Below are positions 22,757 through 54,583 of a stretch of DNA of 64,000 nt, one piece after another (position 1 is the stretch's first letter; every line of letters starts with the position of its first letter). Position numbers and translations under genes: made by a program. The DNA comes from a virus, in IMG/VR virus record IMGVR_UViG_3300017783_000007, positions 1 through 64,000 of that record, one strand, 5' to 3'. The notes under the pieces are model-generated. The model was not told where the DNA came from, did not search any database, and worked only from the letters and a program-made list of their open reading frames with translations.

Positions 22757-25573
22757 TTATGATGACCAGGCTGGCATATTTGCGGAGCCTAAAATTCCTC
22801 TATAATAGTCATGTATTTTCTGCATATTAGCTGTAGATAAAACATTATCATACACAATAAGTGCTCTAACATGGTGAGGTTTTCTAAACGTTGCAGAAAC
22901 ATACCCATTAAAGTCTATCCCGCTAGGGAATACAGCCCCTGATATTATAGCAGTATTATACTTAGATTGCTCATGAGCATCAAATGATGTATTTCTATCA
23001 TTCAGGACGGTATTACCGTTAACTCTATGTTCCCGAGTTTCTCCACTATGAGTATTAATTGCTGAAGTTTGACCGGTAGTTGACCCGTCTTGGAGTACAT
23101 AAGCGTAAGTACTCGAATTACTACCATAGCTCCACAAAAGAGTATTTTCTAGTGTAGTTGGTGTGTGATAAATTAAAATAACAGTCTTAGCTTTTCCACT
23201 CCCTGTACCCGAAAGTGCAGTAGGAAATTCAAAGTTTCCTACGCTCTCCCCGCCCGCCGCAAATTGCATTGCAGCTACACTATGAGCGGTTGTGCTAGAA
23301 GAGTATGTTCCACCAGAAAAAGTTATATTGTTACTATTAGAAGAAATATCAGTCCACGTTGTACCTGAGCCCCCATAACTACTGGAGTCTCCAAAGTCCC
23401 AAAATCCTATTAAACCTGATATACTAGTAGGTCCAAAAGATAATGTAAACGTTGAAGAAGCACTGTTAGTTCTTACACCATCAAAAGCCTTAAATCTAGC
23501 AGTAAATGTTCCGCCATTAGACTCATTAGTACTAGGAGTTACTGTGAATGTGCCCCCACTTTGGGTAATTGTAGCTTGAGCTTGATTAGAAGGGCTGGTA
23601 TCATGACTATAAGTCACATCGAACCCTTCTGGATCTGTAGCTGCTACAGTAACAGTAGTTGCTGTGCCGTCCGCTTCTAGTGCGTAGGAAGCTGCGGGAC
23701 TAGTAGTGAATTCAGGCAGTGTGTTTACTCCGCTAAAAATTCTATCCCACTCCGTACCGTCCCAGCCATAAAAAGCTTTCACATCCGTTACAAATGCTAG
23801 GTCTCCACCAGTATTTCCAGAAGAAGGTAGAGCTGCTATGTTTGCATATGTAGTTACACCACCTCCTGGGAGGAGCAGCCCGGCTGCCGCTGCTGCTGCA
23901 ATTTCGCTTTTTACAATTAACTTAGTCGCTGAAACAGCGGTTCCTGCTAATACTGAAGGAGATCCCGCTGTTGTTGACAGTGTACCGTCGTTTTGTATGT
24001 AATAAGACTGCCCGGCAGTTAGCCCAGACTGAGCATCATCTACTGAACCTATAAGTTGAACTGTAGCAGTAGCAGAATTAGCATAGGCCGCATCCGATAC
24101 TCCTATGTAGTTACTTGCTGTAAGATTTGTTGAAGTTGAGGCTGCCCTAGCTGTTTGCTTTACACGAGCTGTTCCACGGTTAGAGTTTCCTCTGTCCCTA
24201 TAAGCGAGTACTACTTTGTTTGAATTTGAGTCAAAAGTTGTACCATAATTATTATCTGATTCACCACTGTTGTATACCTCTGCTGAACCCAGAGTAAGAC
24301 TTGTCCCGCTCACAGTACACTCACGAAGAGTACCGTACCAAGAGTTGGCTACATCTAAGTAGGTAATTACAATTTTATTAGTATTTGAGTCAAAAACAAC
24401 ACTATTATCATACATGCCTCCCGTCGTAATCCCAGTAACTTCTGTTCCAAAACTAATACTGCTACCGCTCACTGTACCTACCCTGATTGCTCCTGCAGCA
24501 GAATTAGCATAATACATTGCTACGACTTTATTTGAGTTTGAGTCAAAACCGAGAGCAATGTCATTAGCTCCATTAGAACTGACACTCACGGCAGTACCAA
24601 AACTAATACTTGTTCCAGATACTGTACCTACAATTGCTTTAGTAGAACGAGAACTATCTGAGTTGTTTCCGTCCACGTAGACTAATACGCATTTATTTGA
24701 GTTTGAATCAAATACAACATCTCCCGCCTTGCTCGCTCCTGTTGTACCGTTATAAAGTACACGACTACCAAAACTAATACTTGTTCCAGATACTGTACCT
24801 ACTCTTACCGCTGCATGGAACCCAGTATTTGTAGAGCTAACGTAAGCAGCTCCTTTATATACATAACAGACTACAACTTTATTTGCATATGAGTCAAAAG
24901 TGATACCCCCTCTATTGGCAAAGGAGGACGAACCTATGTCACTGGTCATATCAGAAATAGGCTCCATAATGGTTGGCGAGCCAAAACTAATACTTGTTCC
25001 AGATACTGTACCTACAATTGCGGTAGCTCGGTCCCTCGAATACGTTGTACCACTGATAGTCTCGGCATGCTTATCCTGATATACAATTACAATTTTATTT
25101 GAATTTGAGTCAAAAGTGATCATAGGCCAGCTAGTTTCTCTTGTATTAAATACCACTTCACTTCCAAAACTAATACTGTTACCGGACACTGTACCTACGA
25201 TTGCCGTTCCGTAGTTACTGTTACCTGCATCCCTATAAGCGAGTACTACTTTGTTTGAATTTGAGTCAAAAGTTGCACTGGCGCCTTGCTGTCCTGTATT
25301 AGCTGTGCTGTCATTAAATACAGTCTCACTACCTAAAGCAGCAGCAATCGCACTAACCTCTGAGCCTGCCACAGCACTTACAGTACCATCAGAGTTTACT
25401 ATAACCATATCTCCATTTGCAAGAGCCCCACTCGCAGTAGCTGTGAGAGTAGGATTCGCTGCTGAACTAGAAGTAATTTTCCATTTTTCGGTAGAACTAT
25501 TATAAGTGTAATTCCTACCATCCGCTGTTATTGTGTCTCCATTACTGGGACTATCTGTAAAGTTAATTGCCAT
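22757..25573 (-). CDS. Fibre/adhesin: N-terminal module, beta-propeller-like repeats, cadherin/Ig-like domain, LamG-like C-terminus
   Basis: FDSNSNK.V..Y...GTVSG.SISFG repeats; DPEGF; WDFGDSSSYGGSGTTWTDIS LamG-like start. Confidence 0.75.
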   Translation of the reverse strand: MAINFTDSPSNGDTITADGRNYTYNSSTEKWKITSSSAANPTLTATASGALANGDMVIVNSDGTVSAVAGSEVSAIAAALGSETVFNDSTANTGQQGASATFDSNSNKVVLAYRDAGNSNYGTAIVGTVSGNSISFGSEVVFNTRETSWPMITFDSNSNKIVIVYQDKHAETISGTTYSRDRATAIVGTVSGTSISFGSPTIMEPISDMTSDIGSSSFANRGGITFDSYANKVVVCYVYKGAAYVSSTNTGFHAAVRVGTVSGTSISFGSRVLYNGTTGASKAGDVVFDSNSNKCVLVYVDGNNSDSSRSTKAIVGTVSGTSISFGTAVSVSSNGANDIALGFDSNSNKVVAMYYANSAAGAIRVGTVSGSSISFGTEVTGITTGGMYDNSVVFDSNTNKIVITYLDVANSWYGTLRECTVSGTSLTLGSAEVYNSGESDNNYGTTFDSNSNKVVLAYRDRGNSNRGTARVKQTARAASTSTNLTASNYIGVSDAAYANSATATVQLIGSVDDAQSGLTAGQSYYIQNDGTLSTTAGSPSVLAGTAVSATKLIVKSEIAAAAAAGLLLPGGGVTTYANIAALPSSGNTGGDLAFVTDVKAFYGWDGTEWDRIFSGVNTLPEFTTSPAASYALEADGTATTVTVAATDPEGFDVTYSHDTSPSNQAQATITQSGGTFTVTPSTNESNGGTFTARFKAFDGVRTNSASSTFTLSFGPTSISGLIGFWDFGDSSSYGGSGTTWTDISSNSNNITFSGGTYSSSTTAHSVAAMQFAAGGESVGNFEFPTALSGTGSGKAKTVILIYHTPTTLENTLLWSYGSNSSTYAYVLQDGSTTGQTSAINTHSGETREHRVNGNTVLNDRNTSFDAHEQSKYNTAIISGAVFPSGIDFNGYVSATFRKPHHVRALIVYDNVLSTANMQKIHDYYRGILGSANMPAWSS
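24150..25330 (-). repeat. About 6-7 imperfect 55-70 aa repeats (propeller blades)
   Basis: CAAAACTAATACT..T.CC...ACTGTACCTA recurs near 24450, 24600, 24770, 24980 and 25165. Confidence 0.85.
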
Positions 25574-25575
25574 TT

Positions 25576-25893
25576 TTATACCTCTATAATGTTAACGCTT
25601 AGAGCAGAATTCCACAATATATCAAGCTGTTTAGCCCACATATTGTAATGCGACTTTATATCTTGTTTATTTTCAGGAAGTTTAGATAAACTCCTTACAT
25701 ATTCTACTGTAAAAGTGTCTAATAATTCTTGCTCAGTATTAAACTTCATTTTTTTAGGCTCAAAAATCCAAAAAACATCTTTAGTTAAACTCTCATCCGT
25801 TTCACTTACTAAGGTTATATTCGCTTGTATATACTTAATAGTATTGTCTACATGATATACCTTAACAGAGTTCCATTGTTCTATAAAATTCAT
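25576..25893 (-). CDS. Hypothetical protein (possible fibre chaperone)
   Basis: GGAG plus ATG at 25893; composition unlike the fibre proteins. Confidence 0.5.
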   Translation of the reverse strand: MNFIEQWNSVKVYHVDNTIKYIQANITLVSETDESLTKDVFWIFEPKKMKFNTEQELLDTFTVEYVRSLSKLPENKQDIKSHYNMWAKQLDILWNSALSVNIIEV

Positions 25894-25895
25894 AC

Positions 25896-26111
25896 TTACT
25901 CCCACGATTCCGGATCTGCTGCTGCAGCTCCGCTGCTATCTGTTGTTCTTGCAGGAAATGGAAGCAAAGTACTCCCAAGAGGTACATCTGCAACGATAAG
26001 ATCTCTTGCTGCGGGAAATAGGCTTCCCGCTAAAAGTAAAGGTGATGGAGGAACCGTTGCAAAAACTATTTCTGTTACTGTAGTAACGCCCCCTTCTATT
26101 GTTAATGCCAT
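25896..26111 (-). CDS. Small hypothetical virion-associated protein
   Basis: AGGAG RBS; tightly packed in the operon. Confidence 0.55.
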   Translation of the reverse strand: MALTIEGGVTTVTEIVFATVPPSPLLLAGSLFPAARDLIVADVPLGSTLLPFPARTTDSSGAAAADPESWE

Positions 26112-26121
26112 GTTTTTTCTC

Positions 26122-27282
26122 CTATGTTTTTTTAATTAAATAATGTCCTAGATCCGGCCGAAGATCTACAACAGGGGCATATACATAATCATTTCCTGAG
26201 ATTGTAACTTCCTCAAATGCAGTTCCAATCCCAGAGGGGGCAAACCAAACATTATTTAAAGTAGAAAAGTCCTTTACATCTGGAAAAAAGCCAGGACCTT
26301 TTATATATAAGGGGAAAACTACTAGTGCTTTTGTGCCGTTCGCGGTATAGGATAATTGGTTGCTATTTTTAAATGAAGCGGTGCCGGACGAGGTGGAGGC
26401 AGCATAAGACATATTCCATTGCATGTCAGTATTGATCTCACCTACGTCAGAGCCAGTAATTGTGCTATTCTCTAGTTTTGCTATACTATAATAGTATCCC
26501 TCGGGGTCGTACGCATTGCCGTTAGTAGAAGCTGTCCATAGTCGTATAGTGCCTCCTTCATTTCCCGCAAGGTGTGTACCAAAGTTACAGAGTTGTGCAA
26601 AATCTCCTGGGCTAGTGTTTCCAAACCAACCTGAATTAGAACTTGATCTATACATTGGCGAAGCCTCACCCGCGTTGTGTTTACTCGCGTCGGATGCAAA
26701 AACAAAAGCATTAGGACACACAGACTGTTTTTGATCTAAAGGACCTTGGGGGCCTTCTAAAATCATAAAAGCTCCCTCTCCGCTATCTATGTAACCCAAT
26801 ATTATAATTCTTTTTGGATCCGCAAAAACTCGTATAGTACGACCACTTGTATACATAGCATGAGAGCTAGCATAAGTACTGTTCGTACCAGAGTACCCCC
26901 AGCTTAAGTTTTCTGTGCTCGTATTTGGATCAAAAATAACCCCCAAACAAAACCCAAAGCTAGTACTATTATAGTATGAAGTACTAGTGTGGGCCCCAGA
27001 GGTATATAAGGCACAATACTTTGGGATGTTGTTTGTAGCAGAAGTACCTTGAAGAATATACTGTGCGTCTGCCGCTGCTATACTACCACTTTGCAAAGAG
27101 TTAGAGCTATGTAAGGCCCAACCACTGTTTGCTCCCGCTGTTAATTCAGAGTCAGCTGTCGTAATAAACTCTAGATTACTTAAAGACGCGCTACCCGAAC
27201 TAGACTCATGAATAATTCTAGTTATATCCCTTACTACTTCTCCATTTGTTGTATTTGAGGGAAATTTTAATTTTGCATACAT
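26122..27282 (-). CDS. Putative virion/fibre-associated protein
   Basis: AGGAG RBS; S/T/G/N-rich; lies in the fibre operon. Confidence 0.6.
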   Translation of the reverse strand: MYAKLKFPSNTTNGEVVRDITRIIHESSSGSASLSNLEFITTADSELTAGANSGWALHSSNSLQSGSIAAADAQYILQGTSATNNIPKYCALYTSGAHTSTSYYNSTSFGFCLGVIFDPNTSTENLSWGYSGTNSTYASSHAMYTSGRTIRVFADPKRIIILGYIDSGEGAFMILEGPQGPLDQKQSVCPNAFVFASDASKHNAGEASPMYRSSSNSGWFGNTSPGDFAQLCNFGTHLAGNEGGTIRLWTASTNGNAYDPEGYYYSIAKLENSTITGSDVGEINTDMQWNMSYAASTSSGTASFKNSNQLSYTANGTKALVVFPLYIKGPGFFPDVKDFSTLNNVWFAPSGIGTAFEEVTISGNDYVYAPVVDLRPDLGHYLIKKT

Positions 27283-27305
27283 TGTATTTTCTCCTGATAT
27301 GCTAG

Positions 27306-28586
27306 TTATGAAAAACTAAATACTAAATATAGGTTGGCACCCGCTGTGCTAGAACCTACCTGTGTTATATTTACGGTTATATAGTCACCTTCCGAAAAAG
27401 TTGTAGTATCACTATTATTAACACTAGAACTAGCTCCGTTAGCAATTGTTATTGTTTTAAACGCGCTTCCTGCGCCATTTTTAATTAAGGCTATAGTAGC
27501 CGCTGATCCAGCGGGTGCAGTATCTACAAAAGCATCTATAAAATCAAGCGTAAAAGAGTCATGCAGATATAGTCGTTTTGATCCTGTATTTACAGCAAGA
27601 GTATCATCATACCTATATGCCTTTACAAAGCCTCCTCCCGCTGATTGGCTTGCCCAACTCAATACTCCACTGCCATTTGTAGTTAGTACTTGATTTGCAC
27701 TTCCGTCAGCATTTGGCCAAGTATGATTGTCTAATACAATGTTTCCTGACCCATCGGGTTTTATATCTATATTACCATTGCCAATAGAAACAATATCTTG
27801 TCCGTTGACATCTAGATTTCCCCCAAGCTGAGGTGTTGTGTCAGCTACTACTGACGCAATACCCCCTGATCCTGTTGAATCTGCTGCGGGCGCCCATTCA
27901 CTCCCGCTCCACTTTAATACTTGACCAGAACTGGGACTTGTAGAGCTTACATTTGTTAAATCTGATAAAACAGCAACGCCTCCTCCACCATCAGGATTAG
28001 CAAATTCAATCCATTGATTACTGCTGCCGTCAGCATAGTAAATATAGGGGGTCAGCTCAGTTGTATCAAACCATAAATCTCCCGAGGAAGGACTGCTGGG
28101 AGCAGTATCAGAAGTAGATACTGAAGCACCTCCTCCTCCTCCACTGCTTTGCGCAGTCCAACTTAGATTTCCAGATCCGTCTGTTTTTAGAACGTAATTT
28201 GCAGTGCCATCTGCAGTAGGCCAGCTCAACCCATCAAGTATAATTTTTCCTGAGCCATTTGGAGTTATAGAAATATTTCCATTGCTAACTGAAACTAGGC
28301 TTTGCCCATTAACGTCTAGATCACCTCCCAGCTGCGGAGTTGTATCTTCAACTAGGGAGGATAAGCCTCCAGAACTTACGGTAGTGAATGTAAAAGAACC
28401 ACTGCCGTTTGTAGTTAATACTTGACCATTTGTGCCATCAGACCCGACATCTGTTAGTGATAGTAAAGTATCGCCGGGGCTTGAAGTAACGTCCCATTTA
28501 CCTGTACTATTACTAAATGTATATGTACGTCCATCAGCTGTAATAGTAGCTCCGTCACTTGGACTGTTTGTAAAATTAACTGCCAT
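27306..28586 (-). CDS. Tail fibre segment protein
   Basis: GQVLTTNGSG, DTTPQLGG.LDVNG and GDLWFD...QWIE fibre motifs. Confidence 0.78.
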   Translation of the reverse strand: MAVNFTNSPSDGATITADGRTYTFSNSTGKWDVTSSPGDTLLSLTDVGSDGTNGQVLTTNGSGSFTFTTVSSGGLSSLVEDTTPQLGGDLDVNGQSLVSVSNGNISITPNGSGKIILDGLSWPTADGTANYVLKTDGSGNLSWTAQSSGGGGGASVSTSDTAPSSPSSGDLWFDTTELTPYIYYADGSSNQWIEFANPDGGGGVAVLSDLTNVSSTSPSSGQVLKWSGSEWAPAADSTGSGGIASVVADTTPQLGGNLDVNGQDIVSIGNGNIDIKPDGSGNIVLDNHTWPNADGSANQVLTTNGSGVLSWASQSAGGGFVKAYRYDDTLAVNTGSKRLYLHDSFTLDFIDAFVDTAPAGSAATIALIKNGAGSAFKTITIANGASSSVNNSDTTTFSEGDYITVNITQVGSSTAGANLYLVFSFS

Positions 28587-28588
28587 TT

Positions 28589-29107
28589 CTATTCTCCAAA
28601 TGTCACTTTTCTGCTAACTACGTTATCAGATTTACTATTTTCTTCTGCAAGTGAAAACTTGTTTGCATTAATTAGACTCTGAACATTTCTCCACGCTGTA
28701 GTATCTCCTTTTACCATATTAAAAGAAGCTGTAGTTGTTCCCATGGTTTCTCTAATTTGTGCTCTTACTGTCTGAAACTCGTCCGTGTACATCCAGGCCT
28801 TGCTATTTTGTGCATCCGGACCTGCTAACCACATACCCCATTCAAAATTTGTTCCTTCAATAGTGCCTGCAATCAAAGCTAAACATCGGGCTCCGGCTCT
28901 TACTGCAACAACGGTTCTTTCAGAGTCTGAAGCGAAGGAGCGATAAAGAGCTAGTGCTGTTTCTCTTTTTTCTTCCTCGGTAGTTGCATTGAACTCGCTC
29001 CAAGAAAAAACACTTTCAGACATAGCATCTTCTTTACAGCCCTCCCATACAATATTAAAATCATCGTTACGAACTTTGTCTATAATATCAATAGTATAAT
29101 TACTCAT
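28589..29107 (-). CDS. Hypothetical protein downstream of the adhesin (possible assembly factor)
   Basis: Start overlaps the upstream gene end; globular charged composition. Confidence 0.55.
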   Translation of the reverse strand: MSNYTIDIIDKVRNDDFNIVWEGCKEDAMSESVFSWSEFNATTEEEKRETALALYRSFASDSERTVVAVRAGARCLALIAGTIEGTNFEWGMWLAGPDAQNSKAWMYTDEFQTVRAQIRETMGTTTASFNMVKGDTTAWRNVQSLINANKFSLAEENSKSDNVVSRKVTFGE

Positions 29108-29711
29108 TAAAATCCACGTCCTTATCGCTTGTGGAGGTTACCCAGTTTCCTAAAGTTGTAGTATAGGCAGAACTGTTGGCCCAGACCCATTTAGTGTTTC
29201 CGTCGCTCTGGGTGTGAGTGGCACTAGAAGAAGTAAGGTTCTGACTTCCTACATCTATAGAAGTAAAAAATCCTTGGGCTCTAGTTCCTGAGAGCACTAC
29301 TTCAAATCCTCTGCCTGATATAACATTTGTTTTTAGGTCTTGTGTTCTGCGTTCTCTCAATACTTTTATAGTTGCTCCATCATATGTAGTCGCACTACCA
29401 CTAGCAATGCTTCCAATAGTTGTTGAGGCAATTGAGTCGTAGCCATGAGTAAGATAGCCATTGCCTCCAGATATAGTAATAGTTACATCAGCAGACGAAG
29501 AAGATGCAGTTCCTTTTGCCGCTCCATGAAAGTTAGACATTTTTATCCTACCCGTTAAGGGAACATTAGTAATAACTCTGCCACTATTTCCTGCAGACAG
29601 ACCAATAATAGTACCTCCTCCATAGTATTCCGAAAAGGATATAGGATTTTCTCCGCCAAATTCCGTCTGTAGTTCGCTAAATTTTAATTGACCTGAAGAT
29701 GCTAAAGCCAT
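29100..29711 (-). CDS. Fibre-tip adhesin-like protein
   Basis: MALASSGQLKFSELQTEFGGENPISFSEYY N-terminus, typical of adhesin genes that follow S74-chaperone fibres. Confidence 0.65.
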   Translation of the reverse strand: MALASSGQLKFSELQTEFGGENPISFSEYYGGGTIIGLSAGNSGRVITNVPLTGRIKMSNFHGAAKGTASSSSADVTITISGGNGYLTHGYDSIASTTIGSIASGSATTYDGATIKVLRERRTQDLKTNVISGRGFEVVLSGTRAQGFFTSIDVGSQNLTSSSATHTQSDGNTKWVWANSSAYTTTLGNWVTSTSDKDVDFNE

Positions 29712-34345: not shown

Positions 34346-34354
34346 TTATTTCTC

Positions 34355-36049: not shown

Positions 36050-36053
36050 TTTA

Positions 36054-42000: not shown

Positions 42001-45000
42001 GCGTGAGTATGTATATTATCGGATGAATTAGATACAATTGTCGCACCTGTTGTTACACTATCTGCATTTGGCTTTAAAAACGGTATTTCATGAGCAGCAC
42101 TTACACCCTCCGAAGGAAAAATACTGGCGTTTCTTGCACGAGTAGCTGTACCTGAAAGAGTACCCGATATATTGAGTACCCCTGTCGCACTTTTTAAAGT
42201 ATTAGTAGAAGGAATATAGTTTAGTAAAGAGCTTATCTCTATAGATTGAGGAGAAGCTGTCCCATCAACAAAAGCAAGATAGTGAGTATCTGCACTAGAC
42301 TCTTGAGTAGTAATAGCCACTTGAGAGGCTACAGAAGAAGACCCGCTAACATTTCCTACAAATGAAGTGGCTCGGAGAACTCCGGTGCTCGGATTGTATG
42401 TAAGTGGATTGATATCTCCGGATACACTTAAATCTTTTCTTAAACCATGGTAATCTACAGAGCTAATTGTCTCCGCCGTAGCATCTCCAAATATAATCGG
42501 AAAATCGGAGTTAGTTGTATCCGTTTCAGTTACAGCAACTTTTGTAGACTTTGTTGATATACCGGTAAATGTAGCATCAGTACCATCTGTACCGGACTCA
42601 AGTATTTTATTAGTACCGTTACTAGCATATACATCTCCGGTTAGATTGCCAGTAATTGCACCAGTAGTTGTAAATGCGCCTGCTGTCATAGTACCTGATA
42701 CTATAGGAGCATTTACTAAACCAAATGTAATTGTATTGTCACTTACCGTTGTTGTTACTTGGTTTGTTGTTCCTGAGAAAGCTAATGTTTGCCCTGTTGT
42801 AAAAGTATCATTAGAACCAGAATCAGCACTTAACGTAAATGAAGAGTTGACGTTTGAAATCTCAGTATCAACGTATGCTTTAATAGATTGTTGAGTAACA
42901 CCAAATTGATCTGAGTCATCAGACATTGAATCATCGTCTAAGAACCCTGAAACTGCAATATTATTAGTACCTTTGAAGGAAGCGGCCGTAATAGCACCTG
43001 CTTTTAATGCACTTGCTGTGCCTGTAAAGGTATTTGAACTTTCTGTGGCATCTGCAATGAATACAAATTCACTTGCTGAATCATCATAACCAAAGAAACC
43101 TTTCTTTGCGGACGAACCATCGTGCCAATTAAACTTTATGCCTCTGTCCAAGTTGTCATCAGATGAAATTGCTGGATCACCTACTTCAAAAATAGGATCA
43201 TCAACTTGAACTGTTGTACTGTTTACCGTGGTTGTTGTACCGTTTACTGTAAGTGTTCCGTCTACTACAATATCATTGCTAAAAGTCTTATTGCCTGAAA
43301 TAGTGGCAGCTATAGAAACTCCATTACTATCTACTTCTAATCCGCCATTAGTTTTAGGCTGTACAGAAAGAGTTAGAGCTCCTTGCGTGTTGCTATTAGC
43401 TTCTAATATACCGTTCCCAGCAGTTATAGAGGTAACGCTAGCTCCGTCCAAGCCATTTACAGTTGCACCGTCAAAATCTACAGTCGCATTATCAAAGTCT
43501 ATAGTTACGCCGCTATTGAAACCTAAGTTGCCCGTTAGAGTGCCACCACTTATAGGAAGAGCATTATCTGCTTTAGTACCCTGAGCATCCGTAGCATAAT
43601 CTGAAGAATCAAATGCTTTTACTTGAGCAAGATTAGTTACTTCAGAATCCATCAAAGCGCCAGCGGCTGTTACATTCGTAGTATCCGTAACATCTGCACT
43701 AGCCTCAACTCCTGATAGCTTAGTTTTTTCAGCGTCAGTAAACGCATTAGTATCTGAGTTGTTTTCATAAGCTGTTTTAATTTCAGCGTCAGTTTGATCA
43801 GCGGTTGCGCTGGCTTCAATGCCATCCAGCTTAGTTTTTTCCGAGTCAGTAAACGCATTAGTATTTGAGTTGTTCTCATACGCTGTTTTAATTTCAGAGT
43901 CAGTTTGGTCAGCGGTTGCACTAGCCTCAACTCCTGCTAGCTTAGTTTTCTCGGAGTCAGTGAACGCATTAGTATTTGAGTTGTTCTCATACGCTGTTTT
44001 AATTTCAGAGTCAGTTTGATCAGCGGTTGCATTGGCCTCAATTCCTGATAGTTTAGTTTTTTCAGAGTCAGTAAACGCATTAGTATCTGAGTTGTTCTCA
44101 TACGCTGTTTTAATTTCAGAGTCAGTTTGGTCGGCGGTTGCGTTGGCTTCAATACCGTCAAGCTTAGAGCCGTCTGTAGCAACATCACGCCCATCAACAG
44201 TTCCACCCACGGTAATATTTCCTGATGCGGCAATATTTACAGCGGAGGAAATAGATCCAGAAGATATACTTAAAGTACCGTCGCTAAGAGCAGGAGCAAC
44301 TAAAGAATCTGTTGAGTTATCAAAGTAAATACGAGAGTCACCCTGTAGAGTTCTAATACCTGAGCGACCGTCTGTTAGGACAATATTTCTATGGCTGGCC
44401 GGAACTGTTGGGTTCGTAGTATCGTCAGTATTTTTCTGAACTACAACAGTTGTAGCTACACTAGCAGTCGGAGCAACTGCGTTACTATCAAAAGTTCCTG
44501 CAAAAGTTCCTGCAAAAGCTCCCTCAAAGTTACCTGCAAAATTACCATTTAAGTTACCTGCGGTAATAGTGTCCTTTCCTGGATTATAAGTAAATGCTGA
44601 ACTTGCAAAAATATCAGACGTTCCAGTTCTTGAATCTACAAAAGCCATGAAATGGGCAGCATCCAGCATTACGGTGCCTGTTCCCGACCCATTAGCTGAT
44701 GCAACAAAGTCTGTTTGTATAACTGTCCCTGTGCCCTGACTAGCCGCAGGAGTTTCTACTACGGTTCCGGTTCCAGTACCCGCTCCCGTTGCTGTAAAAA
44801 CTGCTCCAATATCGTTAGAGGTTGCCCCTATTGCTAGAAAGTTAGAGGTGCCGGGAGATACAATTCTATATTCTTCTCCGGCAGATATTGCATCAGCCGA
44901 AATTGCAGTGCCTGCACTTCTTGCTTTAAATATCTCCCCTACGGAAGGGGTAGGGGAGCTTCCATAAGCAATCCAATTAGACAAAAGTAACACAGTACCA

Positions 45001-45677
45001 GTGCCTTCGCCTGTAGAACCAGATTTTGTGAAAACTGTTCCTACATTATTATCTGCGGCACCTATTTGAGTAAAGTCAGTAGTCCCCTGCGATACTATCT
45101 GGTATACAAAACTATTTTCAGCAGTATCAACGTCCTGAGCGGTACCCAAGTTAGTAATTAGATACTCATCGAAGGAAACCAAACCATCATCTATGCCAAA
45201 CTGAGAGGCGCCGATACTAGTCCAATTCGTATTTCCTGCGCTTTTAATAACATAAGCCGTTGCATTTACAATATCCGCCGCAGGAATAGTTGCGTCCTGT
45301 ACGCCGATTTCAGCAACAGGAGTATTTTCAACAGTAGTAATAGAAGTTATTCGACCCTGTTGGTCTACAGTTATTCTAGGTATAGTACTAGACGTACCAT
45401 ATGTGCCCGTAGATACAGAAGTATTATCTAAGTCTATAGTAACTTCATCAGGAGTTACAGTTGTAGTTATACCTACACCACCTGATATACTTAGGGTATC
45501 TGCACCTATTTCTACTGTATTTGTGCTACCAACATCTGCTGTAATAGCAAAGGAAGCTCCGGACAGTCCTATTACGTTATTCTGCCATACACCTTTGCTT
45601 GCATTGTAAGTCCAGGTTATGTCCCCCGACGTGATAGTATCGCCGTTACTAGGGCTTGAAGGAAAAGTTAAAGCCAT
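36054..45677 (-). CDS. Giant mosaic tail fibre protein (3207 aa)
   Basis: T/S/G/A-rich; many fibre shaft motifs (G.YG..T.IP.ITVD..GRIT, LTVNGTTTTVNS); C-terminal T4 gp9/gp10-like domain (ITLTLP...TNNITIARNG...LVY...GW). Confidence 0.85.
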   Translation of the reverse strand: MALTFPSSPSNGDTITSGDITWTYNASKGVWQNNVIGLSGASFAITADVGSTNTVEIGADTLSISGGVGITTTVTPDEVTIDLDNTSVSTGTYGTSSTIPRITVDQQGRITSITTVENTPVAEIGVQDATIPAADIVNATAYVIKSAGNTNWTSIGASQFGIDDGLVSFDEYLITNLGTAQDVDTAENSFVYQIVSQGTTDFTQIGAADNNVGTVFTKSGSTGEGTGTVLLLSNWIAYGSSPTPSVGEIFKARSAGTAISADAISAGEEYRIVSPGTSNFLAIGATSNDIGAVFTATGAGTGTGTVVETPAASQGTGTVIQTDFVASANGSGTGTVMLDAAHFMAFVDSRTGTSDIFASSAFTYNPGKDTITAGNLNGNFAGNFEGAFAGTFAGTFDSNAVAPTASVATTVVVQKNTDDTTNPTVPASHRNIVLTDGRSGIRTLQGDSRIYFDNSTDSLVAPALSDGTLSISSGSISSAVNIAASGNITVGGTVDGRDVATDGSKLDGIEANATADQTDSEIKTAYENNSDTNAFTDSEKTKLSGIEANATADQTDSEIKTAYENNSNTNAFTDSEKTKLAGVEASATADQTDSEIKTAYENNSNTNAFTDSEKTKLDGIEASATADQTDAEIKTAYENNSDTNAFTDAEKTKLSGVEASADVTDTTNVTAAGALMDSEVTNLAQVKAFDSSDYATDAQGTKADNALPISGGTLTGNLGFNSGVTIDFDNATVDFDGATVNGLDGASVTSITAGNGILEANSNTQGALTLSVQPKTNGGLEVDSNGVSIAATISGNKTFSNDIVVDGTLTVNGTTTTVNSTTVQVDDPIFEVGDPAISSDDNLDRGIKFNWHDGSSAKKGFFGYDDSASEFVFIADATESSNTFTGTASALKAGAITAASFKGTNNIAVSGFLDDDSMSDDSDQFGVTQQSIKAYVDTEISNVNSSFTLSADSGSNDTFTTGQTLAFSGTTNQVTTTVSDNTITFGLVNAPIVSGTMTAGAFTTTGAITGNLTGDVYASNGTNKILESGTDGTDATFTGISTKSTKVAVTETDTTNSDFPIIFGDATAETISSVDYHGLRKDLSVSGDINPLTYNPSTGVLRATSFVGNVSGSSSVASQVAITTQESSADTHYLAFVDGTASPQSIEISSLLNYIPSTNTLKSATGVLNISGTLSGTATRARNASIFPSEGVSAAHEIPFLKPNADSVTTGATIVSNSSDNIHTHAPSLYYSKLYNKYLAFWAQTSSGVLKYSIGTYSSGSITWGNVTTAADSNGNIVCAQRANSNTQPSYGQITLADLNPSSNILISLTEASGSNKVNTLRVLTFNGSTVTFGASTNVESTSSDTLLGAISITRDPTDTSTNRTLVTHIDTNGNPIALIANISSEGSITLGSELAMVNRRVSTTDQMTNYFSAPDATYSGNRTPRLAQSDSSLRTQITPTFSAPDLPGGEQAAGTFDWTFESGDSKYYLTGITMTNTGRGYTTGPTYTGANFAGGSSISDLAGAPGSGGSFPITNTGFATTDVSENDAMNIDASWSGIANKFIVAIGERLASVSNPSQSNGYNNTRILTSSGTTLSSSGIEGLPFATLQDSGVIRTLGDIEYTESNDDKLGIIVHGNKYRKVIVSSSSSTHTYGSDVTLNSSFYKDMVLANDPTTKEVILLADKSSGGYVFKRAVATGSDISFTSETQISSTNVRSGSRNALVFDASQSIFIVSKVLSTTTQPLYHQLNITDSKLESKNTFSFNPSTSVLSSTSFAGDLTGDLTGDVYASNGTSKILEAGTDGTDATFTGAVTGTVTSIANHDTGDLSEGSNLYFTNARARGAISEGSTQLSYNSGTGVLTFTQGNTDTVAEGSSNLYYTSSRANSDFDTRIGTKDTGDLSEGSNLYFTNARADARIALQTGANLVLSSKDTDDLSEGSSNLYYTDARVTTQARSLLEHSNHVGASVEFNTTSNELEITNLSSTNLSLTGSEDTDASWYITMSSGATGSQSIHTDTGLRFNPSTNEVTATTFAGNVAGDLTGDVKASDNSVMVDSSAKTFTGDFSGDGSSLTNLNATNISTGTINAARVPTLNQDTSGTAATATVLETARTIGGVSFDGSANIDLPGVNTTGNQNTSGNAGTATALATGRTIAITGDATYTSGSFDGTGNVTGALTLANSGATAGSYGGATAVPVLTVDAKGRITSVSTTPPTATALAAGRTISITGDATYTSGAFDGTEDVTGTLTLANSGATAGTVGSATAIPIITVDAKGRITATSTATPAGGSPTSIAGNTTTSSPSVIPGTETLTIKGDGTILTSVAADVGGVPTIAFSIEDSSIPNGKLQNPSITVTDGSNSTSTALGGTITFSAGEGIDVTEASGTITIAAEEATSSNKGVARFDASDFTVSSGVVTLKASSVADGDLVEDYIKASEVDDSSIEFTSNSLNIKATGVTNAMLAGSIANDKLANSSITINGSAIELGGTVSTSDTMGAGFVVEDGDGTEVTITENKQLKFVDNNEININFNDTDSGADGDEFDLAFTLATNGVTGTKISSSATTDSARAIGTDHIKTDAVTGDKIADNAVALSTQTTGNYVATIAGTANEVEVSGSGTEGAALTIGLPDNVTVAGNLTITGDLAVNGNNTIVETTNLSVEDPLIELARGNTTSDSLDIGFYGIYDTSGSQDLYAGLFRDANDSGKWKLFKDLQAAPTTVVNASGTGYTVGTLVANVEGDVTGNVTGDVYASNGTSKILEAGTDGTDATFTGTASTATVATTVTVGTEQSDNALYYIPFVDSQSGNLSLKTDNTFYYNPSANRIFAGNVQGTFIGNVTGNVTGNITGNITGGLTGDVSGNAGTATSLQISRNFTIGATNHPFDGSADVDLSEALQDAVGAMFTGNTELGTSVTYDDVDGTLDVTTNALYNGTTKLADTTSTAITVYGHILPDATETYDLGSPTARFRKGYFDAGTIFLGTQEITASSDTISVSGNFTASNITGDVTGTVTGSADTLTTARNITVNSVNHPFDGSANVDLTEAIQDTVGAMFTSNTETGITVTYDDSDGTIDLIVTGGSASAGDPIVTISESAPSSPSTGSLWFDPSNLTTYIYYNDGNSAQWVELSTPTSGGGGVVKFAEQTSSTTLVAGTKKIVDTSSSAITLTLPGTASIGDEVHIIDGTGDASTNNITIARNGHKIQGAAEDLIVSTDRAAFQLVYYNANNGWVLINR
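39890..40275 (-). repeat. Four DT.D(L/T).EG.SNLY(F/Y)T..R repeats
   Basis: Visible in both translation and DNA (GTATAAGTTTGAACCTTCACTTAAATC). Confidence 0.85.
43700..44165 (-). repeat. Tandem 111-bp coding repeat, 4 copies plus partial
   Basis: KL.G(I/V)EA.ATADQTD.EIKTAYENNS.TNAFTD.EKT (37 aa). Confidence 0.95.
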
Positions 45678-45686
45678 AGTAATCTC

Positions 45687-45980
45687 CTAGATTTCTACCC
45701 ATTGGAAAGAGCTGCCATCATAATAATAGATGTATGTTTTTAAATCAGCAGTATCTCTCCACATATCTCCTTCTTGGGCGGGACTGGGTGCAGTAGCAGA
45801 TTGAACTAAAAATACTGAGCCACGATTAATATGTACAATACTTTCAGTGCCGCCAACACTCTTCTTAATGTACATATCTCCATCATAGGTATTAATTGCA
45901 ACTTCTCCAAGTTCAAGTTGCGAAGTGGTAGGAGCGGTATTGGCAGAGCCAGACCGCTTTAATTTGATAGTTTGTGCCAT
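45687..45980 (-). CDS. Small fibre adaptor (Mtd-N-like N-terminus plus GDMW...QWVE module)
   Basis: MAQTIKLKRS...LELGEVAINTYDG; EGDMWRDT...YIYYYDG..QWVEI. Confidence 0.7.
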   Translation of the reverse strand: MAQTIKLKRSGSANTAPTTSQLELGEVAINTYDGDMYIKKSVGGTESIVHINRGSVFLVQSATAPSPAQEGDMWRDTADLKTYIYYYDGSSFQWVEI

Positions 45981-46023
45981 TTGGCTCTCCTAAATGCTGC
46001 GTATATACGCGGGAGAAAAGATA

Positions 46024-47766
46024 TTAGTAGGTGCCGCCGTCTAGAGTATTAGACCATTGAGCAGCTCCACTTCCGTTCATAGCTAAAATATAATCGTGAT
46101 TTGTTGTGCTTGCATTTCCTGAAGGTTTTACGAGTCGGGTATACCCTCCGTCAGAGGCTGCTCCAATAAGTAAATCACCAACTGCTGTTGTTGAAATTCC
46201 CTTAATTCGTAAAGCATCTGCCGATACCTCTAATGTAATATCATCGTCGTTTACATTTAACGTGTTACCGCTTTTTGAAAGCGCGTCACCAGCAACAATT
46301 TGACCGGCACCTGAGAACTGAGTAAATACTAAATTACTTGTGCCAAGAGTAGCTTCTCCTGTTACATTAGTAAGAACGAAACCATTGTCCCCATCGGAAC
46401 CTTCCTCAACAAATACAAATAATCCACCGGTTACTTCAGCATTAACATTGGCATCCGAAGATCTGGTGAGTACTGCGCTTGCAGCGGGATCCGCCGCACC
46501 AACAGTTGTAACTTCATATATGCCGTTTTCAACTTGACTTGTTTGATTCTGCACAAGTACTCTATCACCCTGTGATAAAGCAACGCTATCAATAGTAAGT
46601 GCGCCCGTGGCTGTTGCAGTAAGAGTTCCTGCAGAATTATCATAGGAAGCGGTAAAGTTAGCTTGAGTCGCAACGCGAACGGAGTCTTTTATATCTAATG
46701 CTTGCTTTACAGCATCTACATATGCTTTAGTGGCGGCATCTTGTGCCTGAGTAGGATCCACAACATTAGTAATTCGGCTAGAGTTTACATCTACAACACC
46801 GGTACCGTTGGGATTTAAGGAAATATCACCATTAGTATCAGTAGAGGATATTTCATTTGCTGTTACATTAATATTTCCTGCAGTAAGATCTGTAATAGAG
46901 GTTGCTAAGCTTACAAAGCCTCCTGAAACATTAAAATCACTGCTATTAAAAGACGCAGTACCTAAAGAAGCTGCTCCAGCATTTGCTCCATCGGTAGCTG
47001 CAGTAGCGCTAACAGTAAGAACTACGTCATTACCACTTGTAGTAACTGCTGTATTGATTGGGTTTGTACCCAAAATTTTCAGCTCACCATTAAGCTGCGC
47101 TAAATCTTGCTCTCCCCCTACATCATCAGAAACCTTTAAAACAGTAGATACTGCTTGAAAAGTAAGCTCTCCAGCTGCATCAGAAACCAGAGCATGTCCG
47201 CTAGTGCTAGCATCAGCAGTAGGGAAAGTATACCCAGCGGCTCCATCGGCTCCAAGGTGTAGCTGTTTATTTAATTTAATCTCTTCGGCAGAATTAGTAG
47301 TAATAAGTGTAATATAATTATTAGTGCCTTCACTAATTGTTAGCCCTGTTGCAGAATTATCTACAATTTTAAGCTCTGTAGCTTGGCTAGATACATCTAC
47401 AGTTCCTGCATCAATATCAAGATTTCCTGTTCCTGTGTCAATTTTTACATTGCCGGATACTGCAGTAATCGCATTTGCATCAATAACAAGATTGGCAGTT
47501 TTAAGCTTATTTACTTTTCCGGAAGAGTCTACAAGAATTGCACTTTCTGCACTTTCGTTTAGAGTGCCTGCAGTGTGGGCCATTAAGTCTGTAAAATATT
47601 TGCCCCCAATTACATCAATGCTAGCCGCGTTGCTTCCAGCACCAGGTCGTCCAATATAAAGTTTGTTTTCGGTTGAGTGAGCATTATAGGCTAACTCACC
47701 TACCGCCATAGTGCTAGGAGTTCCTGCACTTGCGTGACGTCTTTTAATTTGAATTGTCTGAGCCAT
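46024..47766 (-). CDS. Proximal tail fibre protein
   Basis: MAQTIQIKR...GELAY; DAATKAYVD..KQALDIKDSVRVAT; GDRVLV.NQ...ENGIY. Confidence 0.75.
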   Translation of the reverse strand: MAQTIQIKRRHASAGTPSTMAVGELAYNAHSTENKLYIGRPGAGSNAASIDVIGGKYFTDLMAHTAGTLNESAESAILVDSSGKVNKLKTANLVIDANAITAVSGNVKIDTGTGNLDIDAGTVDVSSQATELKIVDNSATGLTISEGTNNYITLITTNSAEEIKLNKQLHLGADGAAGYTFPTADASTSGHALVSDAAGELTFQAVSTVLKVSDDVGGEQDLAQLNGELKILGTNPINTAVTTSGNDVVLTVSATAATDGANAGAASLGTASFNSSDFNVSGGFVSLATSITDLTAGNINVTANEISSTDTNGDISLNPNGTGVVDVNSSRITNVVDPTQAQDAATKAYVDAVKQALDIKDSVRVATQANFTASYDNSAGTLTATATGALTIDSVALSQGDRVLVQNQTSQVENGIYEVTTVGAADPAASAVLTRSSDANVNAEVTGGLFVFVEEGSDGDNGFVLTNVTGEATLGTSNLVFTQFSGAGQIVAGDALSKSGNTLNVNDDDITLEVSADALRIKGISTTAVGDLLIGAASDGGYTRLVKPSGNASTTNHDYILAMNGSGAAQWSNTLDGGTY

Positions 47767-47785
47767 TTATGAACTCCGGGGTAGC

Positions 47786-48208
47786 CTAAAAGGCTCCTGC
47801 ATCTAGTGTGTCTGAATCTCCTTCAGCTGCACCTACAATTATAGGTACCCACTCAAAAGTGCCAGTACTAGTTTCGCGATATATTTTTACTTGGTCATCG
47901 TCCGTATCATACCAAATATTTCCCTCACTTACAGAAGAGCCCCCTGTTGGGGCCGGTGTATTATCCTGTGAATAAGAAGCCAGATCGGCTAGCTGCTTTA
48001 CAGCGCCATCTATAGTTGTGGCCGTAATTTGGCCATAAGGAGTGAAGTATACGTTAGACGCAGATGCAGAAATAGGAAGAGCAAAGTTATTGACTACTAA
48101 ATCGGTCTGATCTCCCACAACATTTACAGAGATCGCACCTTCTTCACTTACTGTTATCTCTTTTACTTCTTCAGTGATACTAACCTGAGTAATGTCTTGA
48201 TCAGCCAC
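47786..48208 (-). CDS. Fibre anchor/adaptor protein
   Basis: Follows the collar gene; EGNIWYDT motif; ends TLDAGAF. Confidence 0.55.
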   Translation of the reverse strand: MADQDITQVSITEEVKEITVSEEGAISVNVVGDQTDLVVNNFALPISASASNVYFTPYGQITATTIDGAVKQLADLASYSQDNTPAPTGGSSVSEGNIWYDTDDDQVKIYRETSTGTFEWVPIIVGAAEGDSDTLDAGAF

Positions 48209-48554
48209 TTGCTCCCACCGTAATTCCAGCAGTAAGATTTACTGTGCCTTCGATAAGTCTCTTAACTGTGACATTATCCGCAGTATGTATTTCTAAATCG
48301 TAAACATACAGACCCGGCGATAGCGCCGCAGTAATATTTGGAAGTAGTTGCATTTTTATCTTACCATCCGTTACTGGGTCAGGAATAGTGCAAGTAAATG
48401 TAGCGGCTACATCAGTAGCACTCTTGCTAGTTTTCATCTTTGCACGAGCCGCGTAGCCGTCAAGGTTTTTAACTACCCCGGCTTCCTTAATAATCAAGTC
48501 GATCGCAAAAGTCGATCCCTGGTCAATCACTAGGTCATAGTTAGCTGCGCTCAT
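48201..48554 (-). CDS. T5 p132-like side-fibre collar protein (BppU/Ig-like)
   Basis: DLVIDQG..., ATFTC.I, YVYDLEI...RLIEG.V...G.T; position between tail tip and side fibres as in T5. Confidence 0.7.
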   Translation of the reverse strand: MSAANYDLVIDQGSTFAIDLIIKEAGVVKNLDGYAARAKMKTSKSATDVAATFTCTIPDPVTDGKIKMQLLPNITAALSPGLYVYDLEIHTADNVTVKRLIEGTVNLTAGITVGASG

Positions 48555-54581: not shown

Positions 54582-54583
54582 AA

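What the first reader, a model, noticed from the sequence alone, without database searches (positions are those of the whole stretch)
22757..48554. Putative plug-and-socket daisy chain assembling one giant side fibre from many genes
Seen: four proteins start with the same ~32-aa module MA..F..SPS.G.T.T..G..(Y/W)T(Y/F)......W (3207, 1544, 426 and 938 aa). Four proteins carry one internal or C-terminal module S..AP.....G.(L/M)W.......YIYY.DG...QW.E (97 aa at ~45690-45800; 3207 aa at ~36375-36500; 1544 aa at ~30950-31075; 426 aa at ~28000-28125). In gene order the first has only the internal module, the middle three have one of each, and the last has only the N-terminal module. Inference: each N-terminal 'plug' docks on the previous protein's 'socket', giving the chain 97>3207>1544>426>938. 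Branched receptor-binding complexes are known (CBA120, K64-1, via gp10-like domains), but I do not know of a serial chain built on this module pair.
Basis: partly seen in the sequence, partly recalled or inferred. Interest (0 to 1): 0.82.

Follow-up and report, generated by a model that had tools for sequence, protein, structure and literature searches.

The report
Plug-and-socket modules linking phage tail fibres
An uncultured marine phage, like thousands of related protein families, starts its extra tail-fibre proteins with one conserved 35-residue "plug" and places a related "socket" in the fibre gene upstream, which most likely lets several receptor-binding fibres dock on each other as a branched complex; only the module pair is new, not the principle.

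Summary
Four proteins (3207, 1544, 426 and 938 aa) start with the plug P. Five proteins, not four, carry the socket S; the 140-aa protein was missed.

P and S are probably distant homologues (hhalign 83 %, P = 9e-6), each a three-strand module of about 35 aa. No Pfam family, PDB sequence or paper matched.

In 81 non-redundant arrays from viral contigs:
- P sits at residues 1-5 in 288 of 298 hits.
- S-only genes precede P genes in 148 of 152 pairs.
- The first gene is S-only in 28 of 35 arrays, and the last is P-only in 26 of 28.
- An upstream socket co-varies with the next gene's plug (r 0.42 against 0.27 ± 0.06 when shuffled). P and S within one protein do not.
- No other protein family accompanies P.

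A 3+3 model of p97 with the p3207 plug supports binding: score 0.73, best control 0.46.

The docking idea is therefore supported. "One giant fibre" is not: sockets lie well before the fibres' own tips, 25 of 64 arrays have two or more plug-only genes, and S also occurs without P and in tandem.

This is a new variant of the known branched receptor-binding complexes. It is widespread (3,879 protein clusters) and untested at the bench. An earlier scan note on this same stretch proposed a branched tree.

The parts
48621..54611 (-). 1996-aa central tail fibre (lambda J-like). It gives the tail-tip context just upstream of the array.
   Evidence: PHROG 31 'central tail fiber J', E 3.6e-130.
48201..48554 (-). 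p117, a small structural protein of PHROG 1084/3304. It may be the base that carries p140. In PHROG 3304 the same domain is fused to a socket-like C-terminus.
   Evidence: PHROG 1084 E 6.6e-23; PHROG 3304 positions 8-117 of 177. The socket modules of p97 and p426 match PHROG 3304 positions 127-165. Its stop overlaps the p140 start by 8 nt. No PDB sequence match.
47786..48208 (-). p140, a socket-only protein. Its divergent socket spans aa 84-123 (47834-47971), and the protein ends in TLDAGAF.
   Evidence: Socket profile E 1.2e-10; match to p97 aa 60-97. Conserved in L008-L010, L089 and L098.
46024..47766 (-). p580. It starts MAQTIQIKR (the same N-terminal class as p97) and ends TLDGGTY. It has no plug and no socket.
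   Evidence: PHROG 30390 and head-decoration or fibre-like hits at aa 322-531.
45687..45980 (-). p97, an adaptor. It has an N-terminal fibre-anchor module (aa 1-53) plus a socket (aa 58-97; 45690-45815) that ends exactly at the C-terminus.
   Evidence: PHROG 17885 matches aa 1-53. The family comprises 18 proteins of 97-102 aa, all ending ..W(V/I)(E/Q)(I/V). In the AF2 monomer model (pLDDT 82.6) the socket forms three strands: 73-76, 82-87 and 92-96.
36054..45677 (-). p3207, the giant fibre. Plug at aa 1-35 (45573-45677); socket at aa 3062-3100 (36366-36497); a GGGG linker and a ~100-aa C-terminal domain follow.
   Evidence: Plug E 6e-18 and socket E 1.5e-19. Tail-fibre PHROGs 24456 and 697. 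The same C-terminal ending recurs in root fibres of relatives.
34355..36049 (-). p564, a fibre-like protein with neither plug nor socket. It belongs to a different N-terminal class (M.NY..IK..) and has weak Ig-like and FG-GAP matches.
   Evidence: Weak Pfam hits below cut-off. Homologue at the same position in L093; domains shared with plug-bearing proteins elsewhere.
29711..34345 (-). p1544, a fibre. Plug at aa 1-38 (34238-34345); socket at aa 1091-1130 (30944-31075); its own distal part ends in an S74 intramolecular chaperone at aa 1443-1507 (29825-30019).
   Evidence: Plug E 2.7e-13 and socket E 6.9e-21. Peptidase_S74 E 4.3e-16, above cut-off. Many tail-fibre PHROGs.
28589..29711 (-). p203 and p172, two small genes without plug or socket. 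Their role is unknown; they may be accessory or assembly proteins.
   Evidence: No family hits apart from one weak PHROG match. No relatives in the fetched loci.
27306..28586 (-). p426, a short fibre. Plug at aa 1-37 (28482-28586); socket at aa 155-194 (27993-28124). A GGGG linker and a second short motif (SPSSGQVLKW..W) follow, both shared with p1544.
   Evidence: Plug E 3e-14 and socket E 3.2e-21. Sequence comparison with p1544 aa 1091-1230. PHROGs 677 and 9729.
25576..27282 (-). p386 and p109, without plug or socket. The p386 family (MYAKL..) recurs beside plug genes in 7 loci.
22757..25573 (-). p938, the terminal fibre. It has a plug only (aa 1-37; 25469-25573) and no socket.
   Evidence: Plug E 4.9e-17; no socket hit. 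Its body is homologous to plug-bearing fibres in L093, L011 and L082.

Best explanation
The cluster encodes a multi-fibre receptor-binding complex held together by a two-part connector.

S (socket) is a ~40-aa, three-strand module found in fibres: ..P.SP..GD(L/M)W.......Y(I/V)YY.DG..QW(V/I)... P (plug) is a distantly homologous ~35-aa module that occurs only at the free N-terminus: MA.NF..SPS.GDT.T..G..YTY.....W.

Root proteins carry a tail-binding anchor and a socket but no plug. Here these are p140 and the 97-aa adaptor p97. Each later fibre (p3207, p1544, p426, p938) docks by its plug on a socket of a fibre encoded upstream, most often the nearest one. Fibres that carry a socket can take a further fibre; p938 ends the array.

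Each socket-bearing fibre continues past its socket to its own tip. The product is therefore a branched tree of several receptor-binding proteins, not one linear fibre.

Shown here: the modules, their positions, the gene-order rules, the co-variation and a supportive model. Inferred: physical binding, trimer stoichiometry, which plug takes which socket, and the geometry at internal sockets.
For: 1. P is strictly N-terminal. It starts at residues 1-5 in 288 of 298 hits in the loci and at residues 1-3 in 149 of the best 150 among 1.84 billion representatives. It never follows S in the same chain (0 ORFs).

2. Gene order in 81 non-redundant arrays.
- S-only genes lie upstream of P genes in 148 of 152 pairs.
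- The first gene is S-only in 28 of 35 arrays (random-gene mean 11.5, maximum 20).
- The last gene is P-only in 26 of 28 arrays (random-gene mean 11.8, maximum 22).
- Non-last P genes carry S in 34 of 51 cases; last P genes in 3 of 29.
- The rule 'sockets offered so far >= plugs so far' holds in 12 of 17 complete arrays (shuffled mean 4.4, maximum 10 in 2000).
- P and S counts correlate (Spearman 0.77).

3. S is the only common companion of P. It is present in 62 of 64 P arrays. After masking P and S, no other family occurs in more than 12 of 64 loci.

4. Root proteins use several unrelated N-terminal anchors. The same S-then-P rule holds in a cultured T4-like cyanomyovirus (ACG-2014f: a 1956-aa protein with S, then three P proteins).

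5. Within arrays, similarity among upstream sockets tracks similarity among the next genes' plugs: r 0.418 against 0.27 ± 0.06 shuffled, p <= 0.003. P and S of the same protein, although only ~40 aa apart, show no such signal: r -0.29 against -0.11.

6. Complex model: three copies of p97 with three copies of p3207 aa 1-55.
- Score 0.73; best of 3 controls 0.46.
- That mark was reached by 58 of 80 solved complexes and 2 of 110 mismatched pairs. These counts hold only roughly here, because my own alignments and multiple copies were used.
- The runs agree in at least 98 % of contacts, and partner pLDDT is at least 68.
- The interface joins p97 residues 62, 64 and 76-97 with plug residues 1-5, 7, 17-22 and 28-33. 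It therefore includes the free N-terminus and the conserved Trp strand.

7. Selection acts on the peptide: conserved residues use different synonymous codons. Each plug gene has its own GGAG-type ribosome site.
Against: - S is broader than P. 17 of 81 arrays have S and no P.
- S often occurs in tandem every ~48 aa, up to 7 per protein, and is often followed by collagen-like GXY repeats. It is therefore also a general shaft or trimerisation module, and not every copy can be a docking site.
- Counts are not 1:1. Five of 17 complete arrays break the prefix rule, for example L057 with 6 P and 3 S.
- At internal sockets the chain continues, so a coaxial trimer-on-trimer stack is hard to picture. 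The geometry is unknown.
- P and S are probably homologous, so the model may simply stack like modules. One control reached 0.46.
- The loci were ascertained on P or S, and many are fragments.
- There is no experimental or structural precedent for this pair.
Confidence: 0.6

Rival explanations
1. One reading: the five proteins join strictly end to end (97>3207>1544>426>938) into one giant linear side fibre.
For: - With one plug-only protein and a socket in each earlier member, a single path is formally possible.
- p97 ends exactly at its socket, and p3207's socket is ~100 aa from its end.
- The near-identical sockets of p1544 and p426 precede the most similar plugs, those of p426 and p938.
- Adjacent-pair co-variation is seen in relatives.
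Against: - The sockets of p1544 and p426 lie ~410 and ~230 aa before the C-termini. p1544 has its own distal end with an S74 chaperone.
- A fifth socket in p140 gives 5 S for 4 P.
- 25 of 64 related arrays have two or more plug-only proteins, so branching or alternative occupancy is the general rule.
- Five genes in the cluster carry neither module.
Confidence: 0.12
2. P is a common anchor that docks on something other than S, such as a baseplate or collar site or another part of the root fibre. S is only a generic trimerisation or shaft module of these fibres. The co-occurrence merely reflects that all of these are fibre proteins.
For: - S occurs without P, in tandem arrays, and before collagen-like repeats.
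- The weak fold matches of S include collagen XV/XVIII trimerisation domains (Z 3.9, rmsd 1.9, 37 aligned).
- P is more uniform than S across paralogues.
- Plug and socket counts are not 1:1.
Against: - It does not explain why last genes lack S (3 of 29) while earlier P genes have it (34 of 51).
- It does not explain why sockets co-vary with the next gene's plug.
- No other shared protein family was found near P genes.
- Root proteins and phage morphotypes differ, while S is the constant.
- The complex model places the plug on the socket.
Confidence: 0.2
3. P and S are two halves of one composite N-terminal domain that folds within a chain in the common 'P at 1, S at ~42' proteins. Plug-only and socket-only proteins are incidental or complement each other only occasionally.
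For: In 86 of 127 proteins that carry both modules, S starts within 60 residues of the N-terminus (median 43), after a short Gly/Ser linker. P and S are related three-strand modules that could pack on each other.
Against: - There is no co-variation between P and S of the same protein.
- In this window P and S are 118 to 3026 residues apart.
- The model predicts neither the S-first, P-last gene order nor the trans co-variation.
Confidence: 0.06
4. The repeated modules are conserved linkers kept for homologous recombination, so that fibre cassettes can be swapped. They have no binding role.
For: Fibre bodies behind the plug are exchanged freely between relatives while the plug stays.
Against: Conserved residues are encoded by different synonymous codons (Ser as AGC, TCG, AGT or TCA; Pro as CCT, CCA or CCC), and no long identical DNA runs link the copies. 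The module is conserved as a peptide over 3,879 clusters at 50 % identity.
Confidence: 0.03

Closest known systems
Anchor-branch dual receptor-binding proteins of Klebsiella podophages KP32, K11 and KP34 (branching domain of RBP1 plus conserved N-terminal docking peptide of RBP2; PMC13352976)
   Same: A conserved N-terminal element of a secondary fibre or spike docks on a dedicated element of the primary one. Only the primary protein carries the virion anchor. Cassettes behind the docking element are exchangeable.
   Different: In those phages the docking site is a T4gp10-like branching domain, and the system has two members. Here the site is a ~40-aa module that is itself homologous to the plug. 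No gp10-like domain was detected. Arrays reach seven plug genes and cross sipho-like and T4-like phages. No experiment exists for this pair.
Hierarchical branched spike complexes of Ackermannviridae (CBA120), G7C and jumbo phage phiKp24 (primary, secondary and tertiary fibres; PMC11414711, PMC9700779)
   Same: Several receptor-binding proteins are assembled on one another. Secondary fibres can offer sites for tertiary ones, and the complex broadens host recognition.
   Different: Those complexes use T4gp10-like (XD) domains in long N-terminal parts. The modules here are unrelated in sequence, much smaller, and placed anywhere from residue ~40 to ~3060 of the carrier.
T4 long tail fibre (gp34-gp35-gp36-gp37), known from textbook knowledge and not tested here
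   Same: It is a fibre built in series from several gene products encoded in order.
   Different: T4 makes one linear fibre with a single tip, and its joints are not a repeated module pair. Only the C-terminal, S74-chaperone part of p1544 matches 'long tail fiber distal subunit' PHROGs.
Mtd-type N-terminal fibre module (motif ..KRG....L..GE...DT....L.IGDG..W, recalled from memory)
   Same: p97 and p580 start with a motif of this general shape, and S and P have a similar three-strand pattern.
   Different: No Pfam hit for p97 at E <= 0.01. The resemblance is a lead only.

Membership tests
T4gp10-like branching-domain / docking-peptide RBP systems (KP32, CBA120, G7C, phiKp24) | A T4gp10-like (XD) branching domain in the carrier protein | tested here: inconclusive
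   No such family was found by Pfam or PHROGs in p140, p97, p3207, p1544 or p426. The structure search of the p97 model gave only Z 2.8 to CBA120 TSP4 1-250. These were sequence-level tests plus one small model.
T4gp10-like branching-domain / docking-peptide RBP systems (KP32, CBA120, G7C, phiKp24) | A conserved N-terminal docking element on secondary RBPs, absent from the primary RBP, which instead carries the virion anchor | tested here: met
   P is at residue 1 of four fibres here and of 149 of 150 top representatives. Root proteins lack P and carry other anchors. This is a functional analogy, not homology.
T4gp10-like branching-domain / docking-peptide RBP systems (KP32, CBA120, G7C, phiKp24) | Demonstrated physical interaction of the two elements | not testable with these tools
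   There is only a model: score 0.73 against a best control of 0.46.
Peptidase_S74 intramolecular chaperone fibres (PF13884) | C-terminal S74 chaperone domain above Pfam's cut-off | tested here: met
   p1544 aa 1443-1507, E 4.3e-16, 59.4 bits against a cut-off of 22.
Lambda J-like central tail fibre | Full-length match to the J family profile | tested here: met
   p1996 matches PHROG 31, E 3.6e-130, over aa 271-1955.
Mtd_N-type N-terminal fibre domain | Match to the Pfam model | tested here: not met
   No Pfam family for p97 or p580 at E <= 0.01. Only a motif-level resemblance, recalled from memory.
T4 long-tail-fibre chain (gp34-37) | Homologues of the proximal, hinge and distal subunits with their joints | tested here: not met
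   Only the C-terminal chaperone-bearing part of p1544 hits distal-subunit PHROGs. No gp34-, gp35- or gp36-like hits.

The most novel reading that the evidence does not exclude
P and S form a previously undescribed, portable connector code of marine phages. The plug is a socket-derived module that continues the socket's beta-stack in trans through its free N-terminus. Pair specificity follows gene order, so a phage can stack up to seven different receptor-binding fibres on one root. The same connector works on sipho-like and T4-like tails.
Probability: 0.35. Interest if true: 0.8.

Novelty: new variant of a known kind. Interest (0 to 1): 0.65.

Why it matters
If plugs do dock on sockets, the number and order of receptor-binding fibres, and hence the likely breadth of host recognition, could be read from sequence for a large group of uncultured marine phages. 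The plug alone defines 3,879 protein clusters at 50 % identity.

The pair would also be a very small, orthogonal connector (about 35 plus 40 residues) for attaching foreign receptor-binding proteins to a phage. That would complement the much larger gp10-like branching domains now used in phage engineering.

It would also show how a repeated shaft module can evolve into an inter-protein joint.

Tried and rejected
- Megablast of the 23-kb region against cultured phages: no match.
- Pfam on all cluster proteins: nothing for either module; only S74 in p1544.
- PDB sequence searches with the plug and socket profiles and with p117: only chance-level hits, such as WW domains at E > 1.
- Foldseek of the p97 model against the PDB: no match at E <= 0.001.
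- VIA wide search: best Z 4.3 (CBA120 TSP3 585-622, rmsd 1.5, 36 aligned) and Z 3.9 (collagen XV trimerisation domain). All are below the level the tool calls meaningful.
- Full-text searches for the motif strings and for conserved N-termini of marine fibre arrays: no paper on this pair.
- Earlier scan notes searched by sequence: nothing. A search by words failed on the word limit.
- Scan of 185,579 prokaryote genomes for the plug: two contigs of one Neomarinimicrobiota MAG only. No host clue and no prophage carriers.
- Natural S-then-P fusions (a Rosetta-stone test): none found. The one internal P-like case, P0135, has tandem P-like pairs without S.
- Recombination-linker idea: rejected on codon usage.
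- No further complex job was available, so the other plug-socket pairs, internal sockets and p140 were not modelled.


Full report
**What is there**

The minus strand of the window carries one tightly packed operon. Gaps range from -8 to 43 nt, with one of 216 nt, and GGAG-type ribosome sites precede the plug genes. The operon lies downstream of a lambda J-like central fibre (p1996; PHROG 31, E 3.6e-130).

The gene order is p117, p140, p580, p97, p3207, p564, p1544, p203, p172, p426, p386, p109, p938.

The record is a 78.5-kb linear viral contig, estimated 82 % complete. It has no close cultured relative. Partial protein matches are to marine phages of Pelagibacter and cyanobacteria.

**Checking the observation**

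- A fifth, more divergent socket lies in p140 (aa 84-123, E 1.2e-10). The window therefore holds 5 S and 4 P, with two socket-only proteins at the head.
- The copies are conserved as peptides, not as DNA. Conserved Ser and Pro residues use different codons, and there are no long identical runs.

**Nature of the modules**

- P and S share the register SPS.GD / Y.Y / W. Profile-profile comparison gives 83 % probability and P = 8.8e-6 over 36 columns, so they are probably distant homologues.
- In an AF2 model of p97 (pLDDT 82.6), S forms a three-strand meander at 73-76, 82-87 and 92-96.
- Neither module matches Pfam, any PDB sequence or, convincingly, any solved fold. No paper containing the motifs was found.
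- p97 belongs to a conserved family of 97-102 aa. It joins a widespread fibre N-terminus (aa 1-53, PHROG 17885) to a socket that ends exactly at the stop codon. It is a dedicated adaptor, not a gene remnant.

*Sampling.* Scanning IMG/VR with the plug profile gave 236 relatives (77 loci fetched). Scanning with the socket gave 56 loci. Removing duplicates left 81 arrays: 62 with both modules, 2 with P only and 17 with S only.

*N-terminal position.*
- P starts at residues 1-5 in 288 of 298 hits.
- P never lies downstream of S in one chain.
- In an independent search of 1.84 billion representatives, 3,879 clusters match. In 149 of the best 150 the match starts at residues 1-3.

*Gene order*.

| Test | Observed | Random expectation |
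|---|---|---|
| S-only gene upstream of P gene (pairs) | 148 of 152 | – |
| First gene is S-only | 28 of 35 | mean 11.5, max 20 |
| Last gene is P-only | 26 of 28 | mean 11.8, max 22 |
| Earlier P genes that carry S | 34 of 51 | – |
| Last P genes that carry S | 3 of 29 | – |
| "Sockets offered so far >= plugs so far" holds | 12 of 17 complete arrays | shuffled mean 4.4, max 10 of 2000 |

*Other partners.* After masking P and S, no other protein family accompanies P in more than 12 of 64 loci.

*Root proteins.* Root proteins use at least three unrelated N-terminal anchors. A cultured T4-like cyanomyovirus, ACG-2014f, shows the same rule: a 1956-aa baseplate-associated protein with S, followed by three short proteins that start with P.

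*Closest extended relative.* It keeps the core p117-p140-p581-p97-giant-p564-p1544-like. It swaps the distal plug-bearing fibres and keeps the plugs.

**Co-variation**

Within arrays, similarity between upstream sockets tracks similarity between the plugs of the next genes. The correlation is r = 0.418, against 0.27 ± 0.06 for within-array shuffles (p <= 0.003; 27 arrays, 118 comparisons).

The plug and socket of the same protein are only about 40 residues apart, yet they show no such signal (r -0.29 against -0.11). This argues for a trans relationship and against simple linkage.

Within the window, the near-identical sockets of p1544 and p426 precede the two most similar plugs, those of p426 and p938.

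**Structure prediction**

I modelled three copies of p97 with three copies of p3207 aa 1-55, each with its own alignment (A4 and A3). The verdict was "supports binding".

- Score 0.73; best of 3 controls 0.46.
- That mark was reached by 58 of 80 solved complexes and 2 of 110 mismatched pairs. The tool warns that these counts hold only roughly here, because my own alignments and multiple copies were used.
- The runs agree in at least 98 % of contacts, and partner pLDDT is at least 68.
- The interface joins p97 residues 62, 64 and 76-97 to plug residues 1-5, 7, 17-22 and 28-33. It pairs the last socket strand with the plug's Trp31 strand and buries the free N-terminus. That would explain why P is always N-terminal.

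This is a model, not a measurement. Because P and S are related, the model may simply be stacking like modules.

**What does not fit a simple chain**

- S is also a general fibre module. It occurs without P (17 arrays) and in tandem every ~48 aa, up to seven per protein. Its last copy is often followed by collagen-like GXY repeats or a Gly linker.
- Counts are not 1:1, and five complete arrays break the prefix rule.
- 25 of 64 arrays hold two or more plug-only proteins, which must attach in parallel.
- In the window, the sockets of p1544 and p426 lie ~410 and ~230 residues before the C-termini. p1544 ends in an S74 intramolecular chaperone, and p3207 has a ~100-aa terminal domain after its socket. 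Each carrier therefore keeps its own tip.
- p564, p203, p172, p386 and p109 have neither module. p564 and p386 belong to other recurrent N-terminal classes.
- How a plug binds an internal socket while the carrier chain continues is unknown.

**Interpretation**

The best reading (confidence about 0.6) is a branched, multi-fibre receptor-binding complex. Plug-bearing fibres dock on sockets of fibres encoded upstream. The roots are p140, p97 or both.

Its "one giant linear fibre" is not.

In principle this matches known branched RBP systems:
- the KP32-type branching domain plus docking peptide (PMC13352976);
- the primary, secondary and tertiary fibres of phiKp24 and Ackermannviridae (PMC9700779; PMC11414711).

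The module pair itself is different, much smaller, internally homologous and, as far as I could find, undescribed. I therefore rate it a new variant of a known kind. An earlier scan note on this same stretch (e1-6082329) also proposed a branched tree.

Noticed in passing
window 47786-48208, 46024-47766 and 45687-45980 (minus strand); L008-L010, L088, L089, L098: There is a second candidate joint. p140 ends TLDAGAF and p580 ends TLDGGTY, and each is followed directly by a gene that starts MAQTI..KR (p580, then p97). The arrangement is kept in close relatives. In the fetched loci (a redundant set), 20 of 27 genes with such a C-terminus are followed directly by an MA.TI..KR gene.
   Followed up: partly
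window 34355-36049 (p564); L093:4982-6676; L051:15056-17497: A further N-terminal class (M.NY..IK.., then ..GD.AYV...N.L(F/Y).Y.G.GW) heads fibre-like proteins interspersed among the plug genes. Its GD...Y..W motif looks like a third relative of P and S.
   Followed up: partly
window 26122-27282 (p386); L021, L022, L025, L083, L093, L105: A ~390-420-aa family that starts MYA(K/H)L.F recurs next to plug genes in 7 loci. It has no known domain. It may be an assembly factor or another receptor-binding protein.
   Followed up: no
relatives, e.g. L011, L014, L016, L027 (proteins with P at residue 1 and S at ~42): In many relatives the socket is followed directly by collagen-like GXY repeats (GPAGPAG.., GADGADG..). 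This suggests S also nucleates a triple helix. The weak fold matches of S include collagen XV/XVIII trimerisation domains.
   Followed up: partly
protein P0135 (1801 aa, metagenomic representative): This was the only one of the top 150 plug matches that is not N-terminal. It has two internal tandem pairs of plug-like modules (aa 603/632 and 801/832) and no socket.
   Followed up: partly
L085 (KJ019151.1, Synechococcus phage ACG-2014f) 3977-12204: A cultured T4-like cyanophage holds a 1956-aa 'baseplate wedge initiator' with one socket. Three 'tail collar domain' proteins that start with the plug follow it, interrupted by a glutaredoxin gene. It could serve as an experimental system.
   Followed up: partly
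proteins P0019-P0120: The N-terminal ~50 residues of p97 (MAQTIKLKR..LGE..NT.DG) recur at ~80 % identity in many proteins of 54-167 aa on long contigs. Some have little else attached. These may be mini-adaptors or gene-calling fragments.
   Followed up: no
L142, L143 (NZIV01000030.1, NZIV01000047.1): The only plug matches among 185,579 prokaryote genomes are two 55-63-kb contigs of one Neomarinimicrobiota MAG. One has the same length and coordinate range as a viral contig that was already fetched (L071), so they are probably binned phage contigs.
   Followed up: no
window 48201-48554 / 47786-48208: p117 and p140 overlap by 8 nt. PHROG 3304 (177 aa) looks like a fusion of a p117-like domain with a socket-like C-terminus, so p117 and p140 may act as one unit. 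The PHROG's name, 'L-shaped tail fiber protein assembly', is annotation only.
   Followed up: partly
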